In this document: one piece after another, positions 6,545 through 58,962 of the stretch | How the letters are laid out: every line of letters begins with the position of its first letter | Numbering within the stretch: position 1 is the first letter of the stretch | Assembly: GCA_964622505.1 (NCBI GenBank) | Contig: CAZUQJ010000001.1 | Coordinates: forward strand, 116,957 to 180,956 | From: an uncultured Candidatus Saccharibacteria bacterium | Lineage (GTDB): Bacteria; Patescibacteriota; Minisyncoccia; Phycocordibacterales; UBA9973 | Length of the DNA stretch: 64,000 nt | Reading direction: 5' to 3' | The notes under the pieces: generated by a model | What the model was told of the DNA's origin: nothing | What the model saw: only the letters and a program-made list of their open reading frames with translations | Database searches by the model: none | Position numbers and translations under genes: made by a program

Positions 6545-7180
6545 ATGAATAAAAATATAATCACCATACTAATCGTTCTTGCTGTCATTGTTGTGCTCTG
6601 GTCTATTTGGGGATTTTTTGGTTCTCGGGTTGAGCAGGCAGAATATACCGTAGTCAGAAAGAATAAAAATTACGAAGTTCGCACATACCCACGGCACATT
6701 GTGGCGCAAGCAACTCTTTCTGGAGATTACACGGGGGCGATGAATTCTGGGTTCTCGATTGTAGCTGGATATATTTTTGGTGGTAATACTAAAAAAGAAA
6801 AGATCGCCATGACTGCCCCTGTGGTAGAAAAGGCTGGTATATCAGAAAAGATCGCCATGACTGCGCCCGTGGTCGTAGCAGGCGATGAGGGTAGCCGTAC
6901 TATTTCATTTGGTATACCAAAAGGTTATACACTCGAAACCTTGCCTGTGCCAAATGATAAAAGAGTCCAAATAGTAGAAATTCCAGAGAAGAATTTTGCG
7001 GTGGCTCGATTTTATGGATACCGTAATTCAAGCATGATAGAAAAAGCTACCAAAGAATTAAAAGAAAAACTAGTAGAAGATAAAATAGAAATTGTTGGCT
7101 CCCCAAGCTACGCCGGCTACAACGCACCAGGGACTCCACCGTGGATGACTAGAAACGAGGTTTTGATAGAGATAAAATAA
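6545..7180 (+). CDS. SOUL/HBP heme-binding family protein with an N-terminal TM anchor
   Basis: KIAMTAPV signature (present twice through an internal 48-nt duplication) and a size typical of the SOUL family. Confidence 0.55.
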   Translation: MNKNIITILIVLAVIVVLWSIWGFFGSRVEQAEYTVVRKNKNYEVRTYPRHIVAQATLSGDYTGAMNSGFSIVAGYIFGGNTKKEKIAMTAPVVEKAGISEKIAMTAPVVVAGDEGSRTISFGIPKGYTLETLPVPNDKRVQIVEIPEKNFAVARFYGYRNSSMIEKATKELKEKLVEDKIEIVGSPSYAGYNAPGTPPWMTRNEVLIEIK

Positions 7181-9785: not shown

Positions 9786-10241
9786 ATGCAGAAGAGGTTA
9801 AAAAATAAAAAAGATTTTGAAATAATCTTCAAACCTCAATTGACACCAAAAGAGATGCTAAAGCTCGGAGTCTTTGGTGGAGTCTATTTTAGTGATAAAC
9901 CAAACGAGTATCCAAAGAGCTGGTTTGCTGGAGTCAAATTTTCGCCAGATGGTAAACTACACAAAGAGTTAAATTATTTTGGAGTGAATGCTAGTCAGTC
10001 GCTCGCAGAGTGGAAACATAAAAATTGGATAAGCAAGGATGACCCTCGTGGATGGTTCCAGTGGTATTGTAGGTACTATATGGGCCGTCGCTTACCGAAA
10101 GAAGATACTCGTCAAATCAAAAGGTGGAAGGCAATTAGCCGGCACCTAGGCCAGATCAATGCCAATTGCAGAGCAGGTGATATAAACTGTCGTCCTCGCC
10201 AGCGCCAAGCATTGCTACATTGGGGATACAAGACCGTATAA
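9786..10241 (+). CDS. Conserved hypothetical protein (Trp/Arg-rich)
   Basis: Intact 151-aa ORF in gene-dense co-directional context. No motif recognised with confidence. Confidence 0.35.
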   Translation: MQKRLKNKKDFEIIFKPQLTPKEMLKLGVFGGVYFSDKPNEYPKSWFAGVKFSPDGKLHKELNYFGVNASQSLAEWKHKNWISKDDPRGWFQWYCRYYMGRRLPKEDTRQIKRWKAISRHLGQINANCRAGDINCRPRQRQALLHWGYKTV

Positions 10242-13167: not shown

Positions 13168-15393
13168 ATGAGACTTACTTGGGTAAAATATATTTTTTTA
13201 TTGACTTTTGCTTTATTATTTGTGAATAATAAAACTTTTGCTGCAACAACTATTTTTTCGGATAGTTTTAATAATGATTATGGTGAATTATCGACCCATA
13301 CCCCTACAACAGTGGGTACTAGTTGGACGCGATTGGTAAACAACGGTGTCGACTTATATGTTCAAAGCTATAACAATCACGTAACCGTTCAGTCAAACTC
13401 AAGTAACCTTGGTTCAATTTATGTAGCCAACGGTACATATCCAGACGCTGATTACGAAATTTCGGCCGACGCTTTGTTTGCAGCAGGTGATTCTAACTAT
13501 CCTCGATCATTAATATTACGCGCTCAAGATTCTAGTAATATGTATTTGCTTCGTAGTACGAATACGACAATGACAATTTATAAAAGAGTTTCTGGTACGT
13601 GGACATCACTTGGTTCAGGCGGTAGTGTTGGATTATCTGATAATACAGTCTCACCGTACTATATTGCAACACTAACATTTAGTGCTGTAGGTACAACTTT
13701 GACAGGTAAAGTAAATGGAGTCACCAAAGTAACTGTAACTGATAGTAGTATTACAAGTGCTGGTAAGGCAGGTATTGGCTTGGGGTACACAGCAGTTTCA
13801 ACTGATGATGGAGGGACAGGGGTAGGGATAGACACTGTTTTGGTTCAGACCGCTACTTCAGATTCAACAGCACCAACAATTACATCTGTTTCCTCTGATA
13901 AAACGAACGGTTCGTATACTGTTGGCGAAGTAATTGATATTGATGTTACTTTTAGTGAAGCCGTCACATCAACAGGTGATGTAACAGTAACATTAGAGAC
14001 AGGCGCAACTGATCGGACATGTACATTTACTGTATCAAACAGTAGTACGGGAACTTGTAATTATACTGTTCAATCTGGAGACACAACAAGTGATTTAACT
14101 GTAAATACAATATCGGGCACAATTGCTGATCAATCAAGTAATGCAATGACTGATTTTGCATCTACAACCAATTTAGCAGCCAATAAGGCTTTAGTGATTG
14201 ATACTACCGACCCAACAGTGCAATCACTTGCACCAGCAGATAATGAAACAAATTTCTCGCCTACATCAGTTTTTTTGATGACATTCAACCAGGCAGTTGA
14301 TGTTGAAACAGGGAATATTACGATTAAAAAAACATCTGATAATTCTACAGTTGAAACAATTAGTGTAAGTGGTGGATTGGTTACAGGCACTGGGACAACT
14401 GTTATTACCATTGACCCGTCTACAAATCTTTCAGATCTTACAGAATACTACATTTTAGTAGATGCTACCGCCTTTGATGATGCCGCAGGTAATAGCTATG
14501 CTGGTATTAGTTCAACCACGGCATGGAGTTTTACAACAGGAGATATAACAGCACCAACAATTACATCTGTTTCCTCCGATAAAACGAACGGTTCGTATAC
14601 TGTTGGCGAAGTAATTGATATCGACGTAACTTTTAGTGAAGCTGTAACTTCTACTGGTAACGTAACTGTTACGCTTGAAACTGGTACAACTGATCAAACA
14701 TGTACATTTACTGTTTCAAACAGCAGTACAGGAACCTGTAATTATACTGTTCAAGCCGGAGACACGACCAGTGATTTAACGGTCAACACTATTTCAGGCA
14801 CCATTGCTGATCAATCTAGTAATGCTATGTCTAACTTCGTACCAACTACAAACCTGGCTGCGAATAAAAATATTGTTATTGATACAACCGTACACATAGT
14901 GTCATCCACTAGCACTTCAGCAAGTGCACGAGTTCAAAATTTAATTAATATGGGGAAAATACAAGAAGCTCAACAAGTGGCAAAAGAATTTCCTAATTCA
15001 GTTCCAAAAAATTTATTAAATAATAAATTAATTTTAATACCTGTAAAACCAATAGAAAATATACAAAAAATAACCCCCAAAATTACTGAAATTAAAAAAG
15101 AAAATAATTTAGCAAGAGTAGAGCCAATTGTAGAAAATATTTTGCCAGAAGTTAACACAAATACAGAATCAAAAAAGAAAAAAATAATAAATAAAACTTT
15201 AAAAAGTTCAATGATTGACCCAGAAGTTAAAGCCTTACAAGAGTTCTTGCAAATTGACCCGCCGACAGGAAAGTTTGGAGCATTAACTTATAAAGCAGTA
15301 ATTAATTTTCAGAGAAAAAATAATTTAATACCTGATGGTATTGTAGGCCCAAAAACAAGAGCAGTAATAAATAAATTACTTTACGAAGCATAA
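13168..15393 (+). CDS. Secreted cell-surface protein with a signal peptide, two near-identical Ig-like modules flanking an SbsA/Big_5-like Ig domain, and a C-terminal peptidoglycan-binding (PG_binding_1) domain
   Basis: N-terminal hydrophobic signal; the roughly 115-aa repeat APTITSVSSDKTNGSYTVGEVIDIDVTFSEAV… occurs twice; C-terminal …LIPDGIVGPKTRAVINKLL matches the PG-binding motif. Confidence 0.65.
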   Translation: MRLTWVKYIFLLTFALLFVNNKTFAATTIFSDSFNNDYGELSTHTPTTVGTSWTRLVNNGVDLYVQSYNNHVTVQSNSSNLGSIYVANGTYPDADYEISADALFAAGDSNYPRSLILRAQDSSNMYLLRSTNTTMTIYKRVSGTWTSLGSGGSVGLSDNTVSPYYIATLTFSAVGTTLTGKVNGVTKVTVTDSSITSAGKAGIGLGYTAVSTDDGGTGVGIDTVLVQTATSDSTAPTITSVSSDKTNGSYTVGEVIDIDVTFSEAVTSTGDVTVTLETGATDRTCTFTVSNSSTGTCNYTVQSGDTTSDLTVNTISGTIADQSSNAMTDFASTTNLAANKALVIDTTDPTVQSLAPADNETNFSPTSVFLMTFNQAVDVETGNITIKKTSDNSTVETISVSGGLVTGTGTTVITIDPSTNLSDLTEYYILVDATAFDDAAGNSYAGISSTTAWSFTTGDITAPTITSVSSDKTNGSYTVGEVIDIDVTFSEAVTSTGNVTVTLETGTTDQTCTFTVSNSSTGTCNYTVQAGDTTSDLTVNTISGTIADQSSNAMSNFVPTTNLAANKNIVIDTTVHIVSSTSTSASARVQNLINMGKIQEAQQVAKEFPNSVPKNLLNNKLILIPVKPIENIQKITPKITEIKKENNLARVEPIVENILPEVNTNTESKKKKIINKTLKSSMIDPEVKALQEFLQIDPPTGKFGALTYKAVINFQRKNNLIPDGIVGPKTRAVINKLLYEA
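13870..14217 (+). repeat. Intragenic direct repeat, copy 1 (about 340 nt, roughly 90% identical to copy 2)
   Basis: gcaccaacaattacatctgtttcctc… recurs at 14551. Confidence 0.7.
14551..14889 (+). repeat. Intragenic direct repeat, copy 2
   Basis: In-frame duplication 681 nt downstream of copy 1. Confidence 0.7.
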
Positions 15394-31706: not shown

Positions 31707-32051
31707 ATGTTTAAAGAATTCCCAGCTTCTCGTTTTTATATTCTCAAAATTCTATACTTTTTACCCATAGCTTCGTATGCATTAGGTTCTCTACTTTTGT
31801 CTATGGATGAACCATGTTATGGAAATTCTGATTGTTATTTCGACAGTTTTGGTGGCCAGTTAGGTCTTTTTGGTGTTTATGGATTTTTCCTATACTTTAG
31901 TCCCATAGTATCTATAATACTTTTTAATTTAATTTTGGAGAAAAAGAAAAAAAATAAAGTTTTGGGAATGAGTGATTCACTTTTCTTTTATGGTTTCTGC
32001 CCTCTAAATTTATTTCTCGCTGTACGATTTTTGTTGGGAACTTTCTTATAA
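31707..32051 (+). CDS. Hypothetical membrane protein
   Basis: 114 aa with several TM segments, downstream of the operator-like palindrome. Confidence 0.4.
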   Translation: MFKEFPASRFYILKILYFLPIASYALGSLLLSMDEPCYGNSDCYFDSFGGQLGLFGVYGFFLYFSPIVSIILFNLILEKKKKNKVLGMSDSLFFYGFCPLNLFLAVRFLLGTFL

Positions 32052-42428: not shown

Positions 42429-42642
42429 AATGGATACTTTGGGAGATCATTTCGTACGGTACTCCAATGATCGAATTGATCAGTACAAAGAGCCAATAAA
42501 ATGGCGCAATTAGGAAAAATAGGACCTTATCTTTTGCATATAACGGCAGGTACCATTTCTGAAGCTTCATAAAGAACCAGTTAAATGGGATGTATATAGC
42601 ACCAAATATAACGGTGATGAAAATTTTAAGAATGGTAATCAT
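42427..42642 (-). CDS. Small membrane protein, hypothetical
   Basis: 71 aa with 2 TM segments; overlaps the trpS stop. Confidence 0.35.
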   Translation of the reverse strand: MITILKIFITVIFGAIYIPFNWFFMKLQKWYLPLYAKDKVLFFLIAPFYWLFVLINSIIGVPYEMISQSIH

Positions 42643-43598
42643 AGTTGTACTCCTACATTACTTCTAATCTCGAGCATCTTTTTCTCGACAATGGGCTTGA
42701 TTTTGTTTTTACCATTTTCGAGAATCTTAATAACTTCATTTTTATTTTCTGCTAATTTATTTCGAATTTCGCGCATTGGAGAAATATAATTAATTATATC
42801 TGTAATTAAGAGCTCTTTCAATTCTTTGTACTTACCTTCTTTTTCTTTGTATATAGTATCTAATTCTTCCTTTGATCTGAAAAGCATATGTATGTTGTAC
42901 ACATTTTCGGGCACAGAGCTTCCAGAGTCTGTCACAATACTCATCACAGCCTTTTTGATCTCTTCATCGGTACCAAAAAGCGGAATCGTGTTGCCATAAC
43001 TCTTGCTCATCTTGCGCCCATCTGTGCCAGGCACTATGGCTACCTCTTTTATGATCATTGGTTCTGGAAGCTTAAAAGTCTCACCATAAATATTGTTGAA
43101 TTTCTGCGCAGTATCGCGAGCATACTCTACATGTTGCTTCTGATCGGCGCCTACTGGCACGACATCGGCGTCTTGGATCAGTATGTCGGCAGACATAAGC
43201 ATGGGGTAATCAAAAAGCCCGACAGTTACCTCTTTTGCTTTTTGGTTAGCATCTTTGTAAGTCGTCGCACGCTCGAGGAATGCCATTGTAGTAATGCAAT
43301 TGAAATACCAAGTCATTTCTGCGACTTCTGGGATATCGGATTGCTTGAATAAAATTATTTTCTCTGGATCAAGTCCGCAAGCGATGTAGTCCATCGTTAC
43401 GTCTAAAATCATTTTTGATAATTTTTCTTTATCCTGCACGGTCGTAATTGCATGCAAATCAGCAATAAATATACGGGTATCATATTGACCTTGCATTTCT
43501 ACAAATTGCTTGATAGCGCCAAAATAGTTGCCAATATGCATAGTGCCCGATGGCTGTATCCCTGAAAGTAATATTTTTCTTGTCCCGTTAGAAGCCAT
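42639..43598 (-). CDS. trpS: Tryptophan--tRNA ligase
   Basis: GIQPSGTMHIGNYFGAI (HIGH-like) and KMSKS; 319 aa. Confidence 0.9.
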   Translation of the reverse strand: MASNGTRKILLSGIQPSGTMHIGNYFGAIKQFVEMQGQYDTRIFIADLHAITTVQDKEKLSKMILDVTMDYIACGLDPEKIILFKQSDIPEVAEMTWYFNCITTMAFLERATTYKDANQKAKEVTVGLFDYPMLMSADILIQDADVVPVGADQKQHVEYARDTAQKFNNIYGETFKLPEPMIIKEVAIVPGTDGRKMSKSYGNTIPLFGTDEEIKKAVMSIVTDSGSSVPENVYNIHMLFRSKEELDTIYKEKEGKYKELKELLITDIINYISPMREIRNKLAENKNEVIKILENGKNKIKPIVEKKMLEIRSNVGVQL

Positions 43599-43691
43599 AA
43601 TAGTTTTGTTTAATCTTTAAGTATATAAATTAGAATCCTCACAGGCCTGCTTCTTTCGGGATTCATGCATTTATTATACCAAATACCCCAT

Positions 43692-43706
43692 TTTTATGCA
43701 CATTTT
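43692..43706. repeat. 15-bp direct repeat TTTTATGCACATTTT, copy 1
   Basis: Exact match to 46291-46305. The two copies bracket the two-gene cassette. Confidence 0.6.
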
Positions 43707-43717
43707 CTTAATAATAA

Positions 43718-43748
43718 AACCCGGCCCAATGTAAAATTGGTCCGGGTT
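43718..43748 (-). terminator. Probable intrinsic terminator of the two-gene unknown cassette
   Basis: aacccggccc … gggtccgggtt imperfect hairpin with a U-run on the minus strand. Confidence 0.45.
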
Positions 43749-43759
43749 TATTTATCTTA

Positions 43760-45364
43760 TTAAGAGAATTTTTCTTTTCTCTTTAGAAATCTTTCCAAGG
43801 TAGTTTTTTCAAATATATCAAACCAAGGTTGTTTCTCTGCATGTTCTAGTACAAATTTTGGTAGTTTTTTCCCAATATTTGTAATGTACAAAAATGACGT
43901 CATGTCTTTATCCATAATCTTTTCCCCGCTTTGCGCTATAGACAAAAGGAATCTTGAGTAACCCTCTGCAGTAATACCTTTTTTGTTTCCTGCAAGTTTT
44001 ATTATGCTCAAAATTATACGGGAATTTCCATCTAACCTGAAGCTCTCTTGGTTAAGGGTTAAGGACCTACCTGTTTTATAATCTGTAGCAATCCTAGTGT
44101 AACTATTGATGTCTTTTAAGATGAGGTAATTTGAGGAGTCTGTCAATAATTTAGCAAAATCACTTGAAATAGTATTTTGATTTGCAAAAGCAAGAGCTTT
44201 TTTGTAATATTCAGATTTGCCGGCGGCTGAAAAAACTTTTTCCAGACCTATTTCGTCAAAAAATTGATGCAACTTGTTAGCGAATACCATTCTTTGTGTC
44301 TGAGCTTCATCTAAAAACAATAGTAAGCTTGGGTTTACAAAAAATATTTTTGCAAAGATATCACATTCTGATTTTGCTAAGAGCTTATTTACTGCAGTAA
44401 ACAATTTAACCGGCAGCTCCTCTTCAAGAATACTTTTGTTAATTGTTCTGTTGTAACTACCCAATAACTTATCAAGTGCAGATATTTTTGTTTTACTAAC
44501 AGGGTCTAATTCTAACCTACGACTTAAATAGATTGTAGGAAAGCTTTTACTTAAATCAGGAAGTATGGCTTTTACATAGGATATATTCGTAAATGAGATG
44601 TTGCTTAAATCAGTTTTGGAAAAAAGGTTCTGAAAATTTATCTCCAGTTCCTTTATCCATTTAGGATTGTTTTCAACCATAGACTCAAATTTTTTGATAT
44701 CCTCAAGACTAAACGTGTTTTTTAGTTCACCTAACATAGAACTTACAATCAAAGTGGTAAAAATTTTATCTTCCCTTAAAACTAATTTTTGGGAATCCTT
44801 TTTATCCTCGTCGGATCTTACTGACATAAACTTTTCTAACAGTTTTTTGTCTCCGGATTCGTAGAGTATCTTGGTAATTTTTATCCAACTTTGAATACCA
44901 TTTACTTCATCTTGCAAGGCTTTGAATTTAGAATCAGGCGTCTCCATTACCGCCTTAAAACCTTCAGGGTAATTCCATAGACTTTTTATCTTATTTTCAG
45001 TCCTGGAAATGTCTAAAATTTGTTGCAGTTTTGATGGCGGTGTAATTCCACTTAAAAATGTTTTAAGTTCCGGTAACCCAGAATGAGCACGCATTATTTC
45101 TTTGCAGGCCTTTTCATTTTTAATAGAAGTAAAATCAATGTTCTTTTCCAAGCAACATTCAAGTGTCATTTTTACCAAATAGAAAACTCTTTCTTTTGGG
45201 AAGGTAACTTTCGTTTGCATTTTCAGTGCCCTTTCTGAGGTAATTTTTTGAAACAGTTTGTTTGCATGTGCTGCATGTTTCAAATATAAATTATTTGAGC
45301 TAGGTTCATCTTGACCAAGAGTGGCAAGAGAAAAAGGGTTTGTTTCGTCAATAAATGTTCCCAT
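43760..45364 (-). CDS. Hypothetical protein (534 aa), AT-rich, predicted all-alpha, no recognisable domain
   Basis: Long intact ORF, second gene of a 2-gene operon. Confidence 0.55.
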   Translation of the reverse strand: MGTFIDETNPFSLATLGQDEPSSNNLYLKHAAHANKLFQKITSERALKMQTKVTFPKERVFYLVKMTLECCLEKNIDFTSIKNEKACKEIMRAHSGLPELKTFLSGITPPSKLQQILDISRTENKIKSLWNYPEGFKAVMETPDSKFKALQDEVNGIQSWIKITKILYESGDKKLLEKFMSVRSDEDKKDSQKLVLREDKIFTTLIVSSMLGELKNTFSLEDIKKFESMVENNPKWIKELEINFQNLFSKTDLSNISFTNISYVKAILPDLSKSFPTIYLSRRLELDPVSKTKISALDKLLGSYNRTINKSILEEELPVKLFTAVNKLLAKSECDIFAKIFFVNPSLLLFLDEAQTQRMVFANKLHQFFDEIGLEKVFSAAGKSEYYKKALAFANQNTISSDFAKLLTDSSNYLILKDINSYTRIATDYKTGRSLTLNQESFRLDGNSRIILSIIKLAGNKKGITAEGYSRFLLSIAQSGEKIMDKDMTSFLYITNIGKKLPKFVLEHAEKQPWFDIFEKTTLERFLKRKEKFS

Positions 45365-45372
45365 AATTTTGA

Positions 45373-46254
45373 CTAATTAAATAATTTTCCTAAAACATCC
45401 TCATTGTTAGTCAGATCATCGTCACTTTCCATGAATTCTTTGTGGGACTCATATTGTTTCCCTTGGAAAAGCATGTTCCTGTAAAATTCAAGATCTGGAT
45501 TTTGCAATTCATCTACCAGTTCTTTAAATTTAACTGGTGCATATTCTTGCAAAGTGTTCAAGAAGGGATATTCAATAGGCAGAGGGATATTTGATCTTAA
45601 AAGGTTAAAAAGTTTTAAATTTTCAACCTTCTCATCTTCAAATTCATAATAATTAGTATCTATTTCAAAAATACTAATTAAATACAAAGTTTTGATGCTG
45701 ATCTCAGTAAACATCTCTCTTTTAACATTTACCGGTATTGATTCAATAAATCCGGGTAAATGATTCAGAAACAAATATGCAGACTTTTCATGATCATCGG
45801 TATCATTAAAGTTGTTCATTTTTTTATAATGATACATATAGTACTTTAACAATTCTCCAGGGTTAACTGAGAGTAGATTGTACACACCGAGATTAAGAAC
45901 CTCACCGTTTGTTATCAACACTTCACTTTTAAACATGTGATCTAACTGGCCGAATATGATGTCGGCTGTCTCTTTGTCACTGTTTTCAATGGCAACACTA
46001 ATACTTTCGATAAGATCGGAAGAGTTAATATTTAAGTTGAGAGCCATCTCATAGTGGTTGATTGATCGCCTTCCATTAAACTTTTTAATTTTTGGTAAAA
46101 GTTCAATTAAGAATTGCGCAGATTCTAATTCCAATAACTTAATTCCTTTAAATGGGTTTATGGCAAGAGTGTTATTTCCAGTTGCCGCCCCGTTGTCTTT
46201 TTTGCTTGTCATGACGTTATTTTTTTTACAATGAATTTTGGTATATATTAACAT
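45373..46254 (-). CDS. Hypothetical protein (293 aa; alternative start at 46212), AT-rich, no recognisable domain
   Basis: Intact ORF 8 nt upstream of the 534-aa ORF. Confidence 0.5.
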   Translation of the reverse strand: MLIYTKIHCKKNNVMTSKKDNGAATGNNTLAINPFKGIKLLELESAQFLIELLPKIKKFNGRRSINHYEMALNLNINSSDLIESISVAIENSDKETADIIFGQLDHMFKSEVLITNGEVLNLGVYNLLSVNPGELLKYYMYHYKKMNNFNDTDDHEKSAYLFLNHLPGFIESIPVNVKREMFTEISIKTLYLISIFEIDTNYYEFEDEKVENLKLFNLLRSNIPLPIEYPFLNTLQEYAPVKFKELVDELQNPDLEFYRNMLFQGKQYESHKEFMESDDDLTNNEDVLGKLFN

Positions 46255-46290
46255 AATTAAATCAAAATGTCAATGATAAAATAAGCTATA

Positions 46291-46305
46291 TTTTATGCAC
46301 ATTTT
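46291..46305. repeat. 15-bp direct repeat TTTTATGCACATTTT, copy 2
   Basis: Exact match to 43692-43706. Lies in the divergent promoter region between the cassette and dnaB. Confidence 0.6.
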
Positions 46306-46366
46306 ACCCACAGAGTTGTTCGATAAATGGAATTTGGCAATTTGTAATCTGTGTTAGAATAGACCC

Positions 46367-47752
46367 ATGGCAGATAAAAAATCATTACGAATTCCTCCAC
46401 AAAGTTTGGATTCCGAGAAAGCTATTCTCGGCTCTATTATGCTCCGTCCTGGAGCATTGCACGAAATCAGTGACATGATCTCTGATCGCTCTTTTTACGC
46501 AGGCAAGCACTCTCAGATTTATAAGGTGATGGGCGAACTTTCCAATAAAGGCGAACCGATCGACTTGATCTCTGTATCACAAAAATTGTCTGAAAAAGGA
46601 ATGCTTGATTCTATTGGTGGTACAAGCTATCTGACTGATCTTGTGAATTCTGTCCCCTCTTCTACAAACGTAAAACACTATTCGGATATTGTCGACAAGA
46701 AGCATATCTTACGAAATATTATTGACGCTGGTAACGATGTCTCCGAACTTGGCTTCAAAGAAGACGTTGAGGATATATATGAAGTCCTCAACAGTGCCGA
46801 AAAAAGAATGATGGAAATCCGTGATCCACTTAAGGGCCATGAGTATTATGCTTTGAAGGATACCTTGCCAGAAGCTTGGGAGCGTTTGGAACGTTTGCAT
46901 GAAAGCAAGGGCGAGCTCCGCGGAGTGCCAACAGGATTTAAAGACTTGGACCAATATCTTTCAGGGCTTCAAAATTCAGACCTCATTATTCTCGCAGCGC
47001 GTCCATCTGTGGGAAAGACAACACTAGCACTCGATTTCGCGCGTAATGCTGCGACAAAAAATAATGTTTCAACTGTCATCTTCTCTCTCGAAATGAGTTC
47101 ACAGCAACTTGTAGACAGAATGCTCTCTGCGGAGTCCAAGGTGAATGCGTGGAATTTGCGTACTGGAAACTTGTCTGCCGAAAAAGAATTTACTAAAATT
47201 CGTGACTCGCTCGATCGCCTCGCAAAGGCACCAATATTTATCGATGACCAAGCCGGCAATTCTATTGCTCGTATGCGTTCAGTTTGTCGCCGTGTAAAGG
47301 CAAGTAATGGTATCGGCCTTGTTATTGTTGACTACTTACAGCTCATGTCGACTTCCAAAAATTATGACAGTATGGTCAACCAAGTTACCGATATATCTCG
47401 ATCGCTCAAAGCATTGGCAAAGGAATTCAATGTACCAGTAGTAGCACTTTCCCAGCTCTCTCGTGCTGTGGAGGCTCGTGGTGGACGCCCTCGCCTATCC
47501 GACTTGCGTGACTCTGGATCTATCGAACAAGACGCCGATGTTGTGATGTTTATTCACCGCGAGGATAAAGGCAAGGATGAAAGCGAGCGCACAAATATTG
47601 CAGAAATTTTAATCGAGAAGCACCGTAACGGACCTGTTGGAAAGGTTGATTTGTATTTCGATGACAAGACCACAAGCTTCCTTAATATTGAAAAGAGTAG
47701 TCTTGATAGCTTTGCACCATCTCAGGCTGATAGTGGTATGGATGCATTTTAA
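46367..47752 (+). CDS. dnaB: Replicative DNA helicase DnaB
   Basis: N-terminal DnaB domain; Walker A ARPSVGKTT; RecA-like C-terminus; 461 aa. Confidence 0.9.
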   Translation: MADKKSLRIPPQSLDSEKAILGSIMLRPGALHEISDMISDRSFYAGKHSQIYKVMGELSNKGEPIDLISVSQKLSEKGMLDSIGGTSYLTDLVNSVPSSTNVKHYSDIVDKKHILRNIIDAGNDVSELGFKEDVEDIYEVLNSAEKRMMEIRDPLKGHEYYALKDTLPEAWERLERLHESKGELRGVPTGFKDLDQYLSGLQNSDLIILAARPSVGKTTLALDFARNAATKNNVSTVIFSLEMSSQQLVDRMLSAESKVNAWNLRTGNLSAEKEFTKIRDSLDRLAKAPIFIDDQAGNSIARMRSVCRRVKASNGIGLVIVDYLQLMSTSKNYDSMVNQVTDISRSLKALAKEFNVPVVALSQLSRAVEARGGRPRLSDLRDSGSIEQDADVVMFIHREDKGKDESERTNIAEILIEKHRNGPVGKVDLYFDDKTTSFLNIEKSSLDSFAPSQADSGMDAF

Positions 47753-48417: not shown

Positions 48418-49212
48418 TCAAAGATCAATTTCTACACCAAAATAAACTTCATGTGGTGATTTTGTTAGAGCGGTATTGTTTTCCCACTCAAGTCCAACTG
48501 AAACAGTTGGATGACCTTTTTTAATAGTTTTAGGCACAAACTTAAACCAAGCACTTGCTTGGAGGACTCGTTGATAACTTGGAAGTAGTATTCTACCCAT
48601 ACCAGTTGAAGCAAGTTCAACGTGATGTTTTTTAGAATGCCATAATGGTAATCCATGAGTAGAATATTCATAGCCAACAACATAATGATTAAGATACTGA
48701 AACCCTTTATGATTTTTAGAATCCCCTAAGGTATCTATATGATCTTCAAGATTGTATCCCCTGCTGATTACAGAAAATCTTTCAAATACTGGCTTGTCTT
48801 TAATTTTACAGAAATCATACAGTGTTGTTTGTGGGCCAAAAGCAACGTACTCTTGCCCACTTAAACTACCAATTTCTAAGCCAAATTGGAAATGTTTCCA
48901 TCCCGTAAAAACCTCTGAGTAAGTTAAAAGATCTTCCATGTTGTGTTCCTTCCAGTGGGTGTTGCCATCATAGTAAAAGTGAACACCGTAGATCCCTCTA
49001 TGGAGGAAACTATTGTGATAATTTACAATTGTTTCGATTTTCACCGTTTTGTTGTTAAACGATGGAAAAAGTGGCAGAGGATAGAATTCAAATTTAACTT
49101 CCAAAGGACGTTCTTTTAAACATTCTTTTTCTTTTGTTGAATCTGTTTGTGCATAAATTGTCAAAGTGCTAATTAAAAGCACTACCATAGTTAAGTAATT
49201 CTTATTTTTCAT
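48418..49212 (-). CDS. Secreted His-rich hypothetical protein (signal peptide, beta-rich)
   Basis: N-terminal signal peptide; many His/Tyr/Trp residues; C-terminal …VYFGVEIDL. Confidence 0.45.
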   Translation of the reverse strand: MKNKNYLTMVVLLISTLTIYAQTDSTKEKECLKERPLEVKFEFYPLPLFPSFNNKTVKIETIVNYHNSFLHRGIYGVHFYYDGNTHWKEHNMEDLLTYSEVFTGWKHFQFGLEIGSLSGQEYVAFGPQTTLYDFCKIKDKPVFERFSVISRGYNLEDHIDTLGDSKNHKGFQYLNHYVVGYEYSTHGLPLWHSKKHHVELASTGMGRILLPSYQRVLQASAWFKFVPKTIKKGHPTVSVGLEWENNTALTKSPHEVYFGVEIDL

Positions 49213-58212: not shown

Positions 58213-58962
58213 TTATTTAGTATTTTTTTGGTACTGTCTTTCTCTTAGGAATATATAGATCAACAGCATGAGGATGATTACGAAGAGTATCCAGATAATT
58301 GAAATATTTGAAATACTCATACCTGCAGATGCTACTTGGCTGTTTGCTTCTACCTCTTCGGTTGCAGTTTTCCCATCTAGAGTTGTCTTGCTACCATTTG
58401 ATCCTGTTTCTAACTTTGAACCAGCTGTGACAGTTGGTCCAGTTAGTATTTTGGATCCAACCAGATTCCTACCACCTGTATAGCTACCACTTGTTGCAGT
58501 ATAGTTATTGATCGTGTAAGTACCAGCTGTGGAATCATCTGAGATAGACTTCCCTTCGCCGATACTATCTACATTCGTAAAAGTAATAGTTGCATCTCCT
58601 GTCGCAATACCTTTTACTGTCATACTGAAAAGCACTGTGTCTTTATTTGTACCTGTTGGTATACCAATCAGGAAGTATGGCTTTGCACAAGTTGGAGTAG
58701 ATTGTGCCATCATTCCATCGGCAACGGTAATCTTTTCACAGGCGAGGTTTTTAAAATTAATCGTACCTTCTACTGCATAAACTTTGTTTTCAGAAGCACT
58801 AACAGAAGTATTTACCACAAAACTTTCATTAACATTTTTAGTCAATCCTGTTGGTGATACATATACTTGTGGCACAGTTGCAGCCAACACAGATGATGCA
58901 AATCCGATAAATACTAAAACTGCAAACACTTGGAATACTTTTTTTGTTATATTGTTTTTCAT
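58213..58962 (-). CDS. Membrane-anchored surface protein with a putative cohesin-like beta-sandwich module
   Basis: Signal peptide; a roughly 130-aa beta-rich module (…VYAVEGTINFKNLACEKITV…LFSMTVKGIATGDATITFTNV…); a Thr/Gly/Ser linker; C-terminal TM segment and basic tail. Confidence 0.4.
   Translation of the reverse strand: MKNNITKKVFQVFAVLVFIGFASSVLAATVPQVYVSPTGLTKNVNESFVVNTSVSASENKVYAVEGTINFKNLACEKITVADGMMAQSTPTCAKPYFLIGIPTGTNKDTVLFSMTVKGIATGDATITFTNVDSIGEGKSISDDSTAGTYTINNYTATSGSYTGGRNLVGSKILTGPTVTAGSKLETGSNGSKTTLDGKTATEEVEANSQVASAGMSISNISIIWILFVIILMLLIYIFLRERQYQKNTK

What the first reader, a model, noticed from the sequence alone, without database searches (positions are those of the whole stretch)
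43692..46305. Two-gene cassette of unknown function bracketed by an exact 15-bp direct repeat (TTTTATGCACATTTT) between trpS and dnaB
The 534-aa and 293-aa ORFs (43760-46254, minus strand) are AT-rich and lack recognisable domains. They form a tight operon with its own terminator. Identical 15-mers lie in the intergenic DNA on both sides (43692-43706 and 46291-46305), like a target-site duplication or att core of an inserted element. Alternatively, both copies sit 40-95 nt upstream of minus-strand start codons (trpS and the cassette) and read AAAATGTGCATAAAA on that strand, so they could be a shared promoter or operator element.
Basis: seen in the sequence. Interest (0 to 1): 0.65.

Follow-up and report, generated by a model that had tools for sequence, protein, structure and literature searches.

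The report
Orphan two-gene cassette inserted between dnaB and trpS
A self-contained two-gene operon of unknown function was inserted into the shared control region of two essential genes in a tiny uncultured bacterium.

Summary
TTTTATGCACATTTT occurs exactly twice in the window, at 43692-43706 and 46291-46305, bracketing 2584 bp. The host is a Paceibacteria (Patescibacteria/CPR) genome.

In 38 related genomes dnaB and trpS are directly adjacent and divergent, 85-331 nt apart. None has the two genes. Their intergenic region carries one copy of the motif: ATGTGCAWAA is invariant and L013 has the exact 15-mer. Removing the insert and one repeat copy gives a sequence colinear with those empty sites. 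The repeat is therefore a junction duplication of a native cis-element at the -35 position of the trpS promoter, not a chance match.

The insert is a minimal transcription unit: TTGACA-17-TAATAT promoter, gene A (279 aa, not 293), gene B (534 aa) and a strong terminator. It has no recombinase and no terminal inverted repeats.

A plus B is a very rare, CPR-restricted pair (12 B relatives among 1.84 billion proteins). It is found in nine loci of eight distinct contexts, always A acidic and B basic, and is under purifying selection. No domain or fold match was found.

A second lineage (L089) has its A-B cassette flanked by a 48-nt target duplication. Function and insertion mechanism remain inferred.

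The parts
43692..43706 (.). Direct repeat, trpS-proximal copy. It reads AAAATGTGCATAAAA on the trpS strand and continues into native trpS promoter DNA (13 nt, then TATAAT).
46291..46305 (.). Direct repeat, dnaB-proximal copy. It is preceded on the trpS strand by the native upstream half-site TGTGGGT (46306-46312).
43707..46290 (-). Inserted DNA, 2584 bp, 32.1% GC. It is absent from all 38 syntenic relatives.
46245..46273 (-). The cassette's own sigma-70-type promoter: TTGACA, 17 nt, TAATAT, with TG before the -10 box (10 of 12 matches). It is the best promoter-like site in the region.
   Evidence: a consensus match only, the transcription start is not mapped
45373..46212 (-). Gene A, 279 aa (the maximal ORF runs to 46254, 293 aa). 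Acidic (pI 4.8), all-alpha helical-repeat-like, no known domain.
43760..45364 (-). Gene B, 534 aa. Basic (pI 9.2), predicted all-alpha, no transmembrane segment, no known domain. It starts 8 nt after the A stop codon.
43711..43755 (-). Intrinsic terminator hairpin of the cassette, followed by a U-run. -23.6 kcal/mol, z = -6.05.
   Evidence: (I4)
43673..43678 (-). Native trpS -10 box TATAAT, 13 nt downstream of the repeat copy. It is conserved as TAT(A/T)AT in relatives.
   Evidence: inferred from conservation
46306..46366 (.). Native dnaB-side intergenic DNA. It holds the upstream half-site TGTGGGT (46306-46312) and the dnaB extended -10 TGtTAGAAT (46352-46360), 6 nt before the dnaB ATG.
   Evidence: inferred from conservation
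42639..43598 (-). trpS (tryptophan--tRNA ligase), flanking essential gene.
46367..47752 (+). dnaB (replicative helicase), flanking essential gene, divergent from trpS.

Best explanation
A foreign promoter-to-terminator operon (A then B) was integrated into the divergent dnaB/trpS promoter region of a Paceibacteria chromosome. The junctions fall inside a conserved tandem-repeat operator (TGTGGGT-AAAA-TGTGCAT-AA) that sits at the -35 position of the trpS promoter. Fifteen base pairs of it (spacer plus the proximal half-site) are now present on both sides.

As a result, trpS keeps its proximal half-site, spacer and -10 box. dnaB keeps the whole operator and its own promoter. The cassette is transcribed from its own TTGACA/TAATAT promoter and stops at its own terminator.

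Shown: the insertion, its exact boundaries, the single-copy empty site in relatives, and the absence of a recombinase or inverted termini.

Inferred: the integration was done by machinery not encoded in the insert. The two candidates are a single-crossover (Campbell-type) recombination of a circular DNA through a short stretch of identity, or fill-in of a staggered break. Only insertions that left both essential promoters intact would have survived.

Inferred with low confidence (about 0.3): A (acidic) and B (basic) form a cytoplasmic complex that acts as an accessory conflict-type module, with B the effector and A its partner or neutraliser.
For: Insertion and empty site:
- 38 relatives (TrpS 58-73% identical) have recR-dnaB<>trpS-tm71-aspS, with dnaB and trpS 85-331 nt apart and no A or B.
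- In a neighbour-joining tree of DnaB+TrpS+RecR the window is nested among 37 cassette-free relatives, next to L014/L016 and L011. Gain is therefore more parsimonious than loss.
- The reconstructed empty site aligns colinearly with 15 relatives. ATGTGCA.AA is invariant, L013 carries the exact 15-mer once and L011 matches 13 of 15.
- The motif is specific to this locus: 20 of 24 occurrences in 1.35 Mb, and no enrichment in the window.

Self-contained unit:
- Own promoter and own terminator.

Not autonomous:
- No Pfam, NCBIfam, PHROG or PADLOC hit in A or B.
- No terminal inverted repeats.
- The neighbours from 32.8 to 53.7 kb are housekeeping genes syntenic with relatives, and the non-syntenic ORFs have no recombinase domain.

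A-B is a real, movable module:
- The pair is conserved in nine loci of eight distinct contexts. Homology of the upstream gene to A was confirmed by hhalign.
- dN/dS is 0.12-0.36.
- A has pI 4.6-5.4 and B has pI 8.5-9.3 in all nine pairs.
- In L089/L090/L091 the cassette is flanked by a 48-nt, 92% identical duplication of the 3' end of the neighbouring HTH gene. The geometry is the same: repeat, promoter, A, B, terminator, repeat.
Against: - No donor, circular junction or polymorphic empty site from the same population was found. The mechanism is entirely inferred.
- Fifteen bp is short for RecA-dependent recombination and long for most transposase target duplications.
- Composition is only about 1.3 SD below the gene mean, so it does not independently prove foreign origin.
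- The L089 repeat could come from a local rearrangement rather than an insertion, because L001-type relatives have A-B at the same place with a VF530 gene upstream and no repeat.
- Two other A-B contexts (L096, L100) show no flanking repeats.
Confidence: 0.78

Rival explanations
1. The two 15-mers are two independently functional copies of a regulatory site (for example a DnaA box, TTATGCACA = TTATNCACA, or a Pho-box-like half-site). The cassette brought or evolved its own copy so that it is co-regulated with trpS and dnaB. The identity would reflect selection, not the insertion event.
For: - The core is the most conserved block of the intergenic region in relatives.
- It contains a perfect match to the E. 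coli-type DnaA-box consensus (consensus from my own knowledge). That 9-mer pattern is mildly enriched in the window: 10 hits against 4.3 expected.
- The left copy lies 17 nt upstream of the cassette's -35 box.
Against: - Identity extends over 15 nt, including the A-runs outside the 10-nt conserved core.
- The points where colinearity with relatives breaks coincide exactly with the repeat edges.
- The motif is not found at other promoters in 1.4 Mb of related DNA.
- Other A-B cassettes carry no such motif upstream.
- The cassette has a complete canonical promoter of its own.
- No dnaA gene is nearby.
Confidence: 0.1
2. A-B is an autonomous mobile element of a new kind. A and/or B is an unrecognised recombinase or transposase that inserts the promoter-to-terminator unit and makes variable-length target duplications (15 bp here, 48 bp in L089).
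For: - Two independent A-B cassettes in different lineages and different targets are each flanked by a duplication of local target sequence.
- The pair sits at unrelated loci in nine loci of eight distinct contexts, twice inside highly conserved housekeeping synteny: dnaB/trpS and fusA/tuf.
- No known recombinase is present to explain mobility.
Against: - Few polar residues are conserved. B has only G96, L104 and P502 invariant, with S120 and three Trp nearly so. A has A83 and R245 invariant. This looks structural rather than catalytic.
- No conserved terminal sequences or inverted repeats.
- In the L001/L092/L093/L089 lineage the pair is stably inherited in one context under purifying selection.
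- In L103 a different cassette (661 aa + 95 aa) is flanked by an exact 22-nt repeat. This points to a general, trans-acting or host process rather than one encoded by A-B.
Confidence: 0.07
3. The cassette is ancestral at this locus. It was lost in the relatives by precise deletion between the two 15-bp repeats, leaving one copy.
For: Deletion between short direct repeats does leave exactly one copy, so an empty site cannot by itself tell loss from gain (general knowledge).
Against: - The window is nested inside the tree of 37 cassette-free relatives, so several independent precise deletions would be needed.
- The nearest A-B homologues are only 35-44% identical and sit in unrelated contexts in other lineages.
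- The repeats are still 15/15 identical.
Confidence: 0.03

Closest known systems
Target-site duplications of transposable elements (DDE insertion sequences; casposons, which make 14-15 bp duplications; from my own knowledge)
   Same: A short direct duplication of target DNA lies at both ends of inserted DNA, and there is a single copy at empty sites. The 15-bp length matches casposons.
   Different: No transposase or Cas1 and no terminal inverted repeats. The duplication length differs between the two A-B insertions (15 and 48 nt).
Campbell-type integration at an att core, for example the 15-bp core of phage lambda, and recombinase-less elements that use host XerCD at dif (IMEX) (from my own knowledge)
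   Same: The insert is bounded by identical short cores in direct orientation. It encodes no recombinase, as in IMEX.
   Different: No integrase is nearby. The site does not have the dif layout of two inverted 11-bp arms around a 6-bp spacer (sequence). The repeats of the other cassettes have unrelated sequences, so there is no shared core.
Integron gene cassettes
   Same: A small recombinase-less cassette of one or two genes, with a hairpin at its 3' end next to the junction.
   Different: The cassette has its own promoter. The hairpin is an ordinary terminator with a U-run. There is no GTTRRRY core at the junctions. No IntI gene is in the window region examined.
Type II toxin-antitoxin / two-gene conflict operons
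   Same: A tight two-gene operon with an acidic upstream and a basic downstream product in all nine pairs. Distribution is patchy and the A protein has a mosaic central region. In some contexts it lies next to an XRE-type HTH gene or an E1/E2/JAB-type cluster.
   Different: The proteins are far larger (32 and 61 kDa). They match no toxin, antitoxin or defence model. No toxicity or interaction data exist.
Tandem direct-repeat operators at the -35 position (Pho box of PhoB-type regulators; arrays of DnaA boxes) (from my own knowledge)
   Same: The native element is two 7-nt TGTGnnT/A repeats with an 11-nt period, replacing a canonical -35 box upstream of the trpS -10. The proximal repeat matches TTATNCACA.
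   Different: The binding factor is unknown. No dnaA gene or origin signature is nearby. The element was seen only at this one locus.

Membership tests
Insertion sequence / transposon | Transposase gene inside the element | tested here: not met
   A and B have no Pfam, NCBIfam, PHROG or PADLOC hit. A profile search against PDB sequences found nothing relevant.
Insertion sequence / transposon | Terminal inverted repeats just inside the duplication | tested here: not met
   The repeat finder on 43550-46420 finds no inverted pair at the insert ends. The only end-proximal inverted repeat is the terminator hairpin.
Insertion sequence / transposon | Target-site duplication, single copy at empty sites | tested here: met
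   An exact 15-bp duplication. Relatives carry one copy.
Integrase-mediated integrative element (att core) | Tyrosine or serine recombinase gene in or beside the element | tested here: not met
   The flanks from 32.8 to 53.7 kb are housekeeping genes syntenic with relatives. Non-syntenic ORFs from 36.8 to 59 kb have no recombinase domain.
Integrase-mediated integrative element (att core) | The same core sequence at independent insertions of related elements | tested here: not met
   The L089 repeat (48 nt, HTH gene 3' end) and the L103 repeat (22 nt, terminator half) are unrelated in sequence to the 15-mer.
XerCD/dif-exploiting element (IMEX) | dif-like site: two roughly 11-bp inverted arms around a 6-bp spacer | tested here: not met
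   GCATAA is followed by AAATGG GGTATTTGG, with no inverted TTATG arm. The same holds in relatives. The dif layout is from my own knowledge.
Integron gene cassette | attC site with GTTRRRY/RYYYAAC cores, a promoterless cassette, and IntI/attI nearby | tested here: not met
   Own promoter, a terminator-type hairpin with a U-run, and no GTTRRRY at the junctions.
Casposon | Cas1 casposase, family B polymerase and terminal inverted repeats, with a 14-15 bp duplication | tested here: not met
   Only the duplication length fits. There are no Cas1 or PolB domains and no inverted termini.
DnaA box / DnaA-regulated promoter | 9-mer matching TTATNCACA | tested here: met
   TTATGCACA is in both copies. 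The window has 10 matches to the pattern against 4.3 expected. The upstream neighbour TTACCCACA has one mismatch.
DnaA box / DnaA-regulated promoter | Binding by DnaA; association with oriC or dnaA | not testable with these tools
   No DnaA signature was found in the window or in 80 flanking loci. The GC skew gives no clear origin here. Binding needs an experiment.
Type II toxin-antitoxin operon | Recognisable toxin and antitoxin domains in small proteins | tested here: not met
   No family hit. The products are 279 and 534 aa. Only gene order and charge pattern resemble TA operons.
Known anti-phage defence systems (PADLOC-DB v2) | A match to any system protein model | tested here: not met
   0 families at E up to 1 for both proteins.

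The most novel reading that the evidence does not exclude
Patescibacteria genomes acquire minimal promoter-to-terminator gene cassettes by an undescribed, recombinase-less route that duplicates 15-50 bp of the target. The A-B pair is a mobile cargo (or even the agent) of that route, and it encodes a new all-alpha acidic/basic two-protein conflict system restricted to CPR bacteria.
Probability: 0.15. Interest if true: 0.75.

Novelty: new variant of a known kind. Interest (0 to 1): 0.5.

Why it matters
CPR/Patescibacteria have tiny genomes in which few classical mobile elements are recognised (my own knowledge; two literature searches found nothing relevant). How they gain accessory genes is poorly understood.

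This locus is a clean, base-pair-resolved acquisition event. The empty site is seen in 38 relatives, the boundaries are exact, both neighbouring essential promoters are preserved, and the cargo brings its own promoter and terminator. No recombinase or inverted termini are present.

With the 48-nt and 22-nt duplications seen around cassettes in two other lineages, it gives a concrete signature to look for genome-wide: a synteny break plus a short flanking duplication. It also defines a very rare, conserved two-protein family (A acidic, B basic) with no detectable relative. That family is a reasonable candidate for a lineage-specific conflict or regulatory module.

If the duplication is only a one-off by-product of illegitimate recombination, the finding is a tidy but ordinary case of horizontal gain.

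Tried and rejected
1. Domain and family searches. Pfam, PHROGs, PADLOC and NCBIfam on A, B and 10-12 homologues gave nothing above noise.

2. PDB sequence profiles. The A profile gave only a 57-residue match to a synthetic PPR protein (E = 2e-4), read as generic helical-repeat similarity. The B profile gave nothing.

3. Structure.
- The afdb50 library was not available.

4. More loci. Viral contigs gave no relatives of A or B. JGI metagenome contigs gave only the already known L001 contig.

5. Exact look-up of the window's TrpS, to find a polymorphic empty site in the same population, returned nothing.

6. Origin-of-replication idea for the DnaA-box-like cluster. No dnaA gene is nearby, and the GC skew follows gene strand with no minimum-to-rise pattern at 46.3 kb. 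Kept only as an unknown-factor operator.

7. dif/Xer, integron attC, casposon and IS models are each rejected on a defining feature (see the membership table).

8. Flanking repeats as a universal feature. The other window-specific gene (48418-49212) and the L096 and L100 cassettes have none.

9. Rfam and tRNA scans of the window gave no hits, so there is no tRNA or tmRNA target.

10. Literature searches for CPR cassette insertions with target duplications found nothing relevant.
Full report
OBSERVATION

The 15-mer TTTTATGCACATTTT occurs at 43692-43706 and 46291-46305, and nowhere else in the window even with two mismatches. The bases immediately outside differ on both sides, so the repeat is exactly 15 bp.

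Between the copies lie two minus-strand ORFs separated by 8 nt. They are followed by a strong hairpin with a U-run (-23.6 kcal/mol, z = -6.05). The flanks are trpS and dnaB by NCBIfam equivalog models.

An exact repeated 15-mer somewhere in 64 kb of this composition is expected by chance, at about 8 per window in Markov-2 simulations. A 15-mer shared by precisely the two short intergenic segments flanking the cassette has P of about 2.5e-4. The same arrangement, with both repeat copies, is present in two independent assemblies from two runs (L007, L008).

WHAT THE ORGANISM IS AND WHAT THE EMPTY SITE LOOKS LIKE

A scan of one genome per species with the TrpS protein returned 80 loci, all Patescibacteria (Paceibacteria / Nomurabacteria-type MAGs), with 58-73% TrpS identity.

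In every one of the 38 loci that hold both genes, dnaB and trpS are adjacent and divergent. The intergenic region is 85-331 nt (typically about 90-120), inside a conserved recR-dnaB<>trpS-tm71-aspS block. tblastn finds A or B in none of them. In a neighbour-joining tree of DnaB+TrpS+RecR the window is nested among 37 of these relatives, so a single gain is far more parsimonious than repeated precise losses.

If 43707-46290 and one repeat copy are removed, the resulting 169-nt intergenic region aligns colinearly with the relatives. Its layout is:
- dnaB start;
- dnaB extended -10 box;
- a GATAA-type block;
- TGTGGGT, AAAA, TGTGCA(T/A)AA;
- 13-14 nt;
- TAT(A/T)AT;
- trpS.

ATGTGCA.AA is invariant in all 16 aligned sequences. 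L013 has the exact 15-mer once and L011 matches 13 of 15. In 1.35 Mb of relatives' DNA, 20 of 24 occurrences of ATGTGCA[AT]AA[AC] are at this site. In the window the motif is not enriched.

The repeat is therefore a duplication of a locus-specific, conserved cis-element at the -35 position of the trpS promoter. The left copy keeps the native upstream flank (TGTGGGT) and the right copy keeps the native downstream flank (ATGGGGTATTTGGTATAAT).

ANATOMY OF THE INSERT

The 2584-bp insert contains the following, in order on the minus strand:
- 17 nt after the left repeat copy, a near-consensus promoter: TTGACA, 17 nt, TAATAT, with an upstream TG;
- gene A;
- gene B;
- the terminator, which ends 9 nt before the right repeat copy.

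The -10 box overlaps the first ATG of the 293-aa ORF. Homologues align from the second ATG, and the public gene call is 279 aa. A is therefore most likely 279 aa, starting at 46212.

There are no inverted termini and no tRNA or known RNA. No recombinase lies in the cassette or within about 10 kb. GC is 32.1% against 37.8 +/- 4.3% for the window's genes, which is suggestive only.

THE PROTEINS

A and B have no hit in Pfam, NCBIfam, PHROGs, PADLOC or PDB sequences.

B is extremely rare. A profile search of 1.84 billion representatives gives 12 proteins with E at most 1e-3, one of which is a low-complexity false positive.

Every B homologue whose context could be read is preceded by an A homologue. 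hhalign E-values range from 5e-49 to 1.3e-5. The nine loci, representing eight distinct contexts, are:
- dnaB/trpS (this window);
- 168aa-[VF530]-A-B-HTH(reverse)-FKBP (L001 type and L089 type);
- RmuC/ExoX (L096);
- Metallophos/ComM-like (L100);
- next to a Y1-transposase/REP array (L095);
- between fusA and tuf (L103);
- next to an E2/JAB/E1 cluster (L105);
- L102.

Both genes are under purifying selection, with dN/dS of 0.12-0.36. In all nine pairs A is acidic (pI 4.6-5.4) and B is basic (pI 8.5-9.3). Neither has a transmembrane segment.

Few polar residues are conserved across either family, which argues for scaffold or binding proteins rather than enzymes. A is mosaic between lineages: the centre of P0006 matches one type and its ends match another, and B is 94% identical where A is 71%.

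A SECOND DUPLICATION-FLANKED A-B CASSETTE

In L089, L090 and L091 (three samples) the A-B unit is bounded by a 48-nt direct repeat, 44 of 48 identical. The unit again has its own TTGACA promoter and terminator. The downstream copy is the 3' end of the convergent HTH gene and the upstream copy is a non-coding fragment of it. The start-to-start spacing is 2574 nt, compared with 2599 nt here.

Related genomes (L001, L092, L093) have A-B at the same place with a VF530 gene upstream and no repeat. The L089 repeat could therefore reflect either re-insertion or a local rearrangement.

In L103 a neighbouring cassette with different cargo (661 aa + 95 aa, own promoter) is flanked by an exact 22-nt repeat that includes the 3' half of a terminator. 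L096, L100 and another window-specific gene (48418-49212) have no flanking repeats.

The three repeats share no sequence. This argues against a site-specific core. It favours either staggered-break fill-in or short-homology single-crossover integration, by machinery not encoded in A-B.

MECHANISM: SHOWN AND INFERRED

Shown:
- insertion of a foreign, self-contained operon into a conserved divergent promoter region;
- exact boundaries;
- duplication of 15 bp of a native element;
- preservation of the trpS proximal half-site and -10 box, and of the whole dnaB-side region;
- no self-encoded recombinase.

Inferred:
- the route of integration;
- selection filtered for an insertion that left both essential promoters intact;
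- trpS has lost the distal half-site of its operator, which may alter its regulation;
- A and B form an acidic/basic complex with an accessory, possibly conflict-type, role.

The identity of the operator's factor is open. It could be DnaA-box-like, since it matches TTATNCACA, or Pho-box-like, since it is two 7-nt direct repeats with an 11-nt period at the -35 position. No dnaA gene or origin signature is nearby.

COMPARISON WITH KNOWN SYSTEMS

The geometry works like a target-site duplication or an att-core duplication. However, the locus fails a defining feature of each of these: IS or transposon, casposon, integrase-borne island, IMEX/dif and integron cassette (see the membership table). The operon resembles a type II toxin-antitoxin pair only in gene order and charge.

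I therefore class it as a new variant of a known kind, namely horizontally acquired cassettes with junction duplications. Its cargo is an uncharacterised, CPR-restricted protein pair.

VERDICT

Its main interpretation is supported, and by the very test it proposed. The cassette is an insertion and the 15-mer is its junction duplication.

Interest is moderate (0.5). This is a clean, well-resolved acquisition event and a rare orphan gene pair, with a hint of a more general recombinase-less cassette-insertion route in CPR genomes. Function and mechanism remain unproven.

Noticed in passing
window 43583-43661 (arms 43583-43595 and 43649-43661); L017 4161-4280 and 4392-4508; L016 13320-13428: A small MITE-like unit with 12-13-nt inverted termini (TCCCGTTAGAAG) sits in the trpS leader of the window. 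Its right arm encodes TrpS codons 2-5 (MASNGT). It gives trpS a leader of about 65 nt, where relatives have the ATG about 10 nt after the -10 box. L017 has two perfect copies, one at the dnaB start and one at the trpS start, and L016 has one. The arms could pair and occlude the start region of trpS.
   Followed up: partly
L009 about 9915-9950 (dnaB-trpS intergenic region): A 36-nt GC-rich palindrome (CCTGCCTGCCATGCTTGCGCAGGCAAAGCAGGCAGG) is inserted between the two TGTG half-sites of the same operator that received the cassette in the window. L017, L020, L046 and others also have enlarged intergenic regions. This region looks like a hot spot for insertions.
   Followed up: no
L103 9789-9810 and 12220-12241 (weaker copy at 6873-6894): Between fusA and tuf, next to an A-B pair, a second cassette (661 aa + 95 aa, no Pfam hit, own TTGACA promoter) is flanked by an exact 22-nt direct repeat, CGCGGGGCTTTTTATATGCGCT. 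The repeat comprises the 3' half of a terminator.
   Followed up: partly
L095 2610-3690: Five copies of a 24-nt palindrome (ACTTGGAAGTCCGACTTCCAAGT) surround a 223-aa Y1_Tnp (IS200-like) gene just downstream of an A-B pair. This is a REP/RAYT-like array in a CPR contig.
   Followed up: no
P0004-P0008 (A proteins of L001, L092, L093, L089): Protein A is mosaic. P0006 has N- and C-termini of the P0004 type and a central region (about aa 100-215) of the P0008 type. The adjacent B is 94% identical between L001 and L093 while A is only 71% identical. This indicates recombination inside the cassette.
   Followed up: partly
L105 4852-8958: One A-B pair lies beside a Prok-E2 / Prok-JAB / ThiF (E1) cluster with a 68-aa ORF, a ubiquitin-like conjugation system of the kind linked to phage defence (from my own knowledge).
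   Followed up: no
window 44554-44572 and 58666-58684: An exact 19-mer, AATCAGGAAGTATGGCTTT, is shared by gene B and an unrelated 249-aa ORF. My rough estimate is that this has about a 0.1 probability by chance.
   Followed up: no
window 13866-14073 and 14547-14754, inside the 741-aa ORF 13168-15393: Long near-exact internal direct repeats with a 681-nt period. This is a recent tandem domain duplication within one gene.
   Followed up: no
window 48418-49212: A 264-aa ORF with a signal-peptide-like N-terminus and no Pfam hit lies between recR and rplU. It is absent from 8 of the 9 relatives compared; L013 has only a weak 28% match. It is another lineage-specific insertion, this one without flanking direct repeats.
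   Followed up: partly
window about 32000: Cumulative GC skew peaks near 32 kb, where gene orientation switches from plus to minus (convergent genes at 32046-32051). This could mark a replication terminus or merely reflect gene strand.
   Followed up: no
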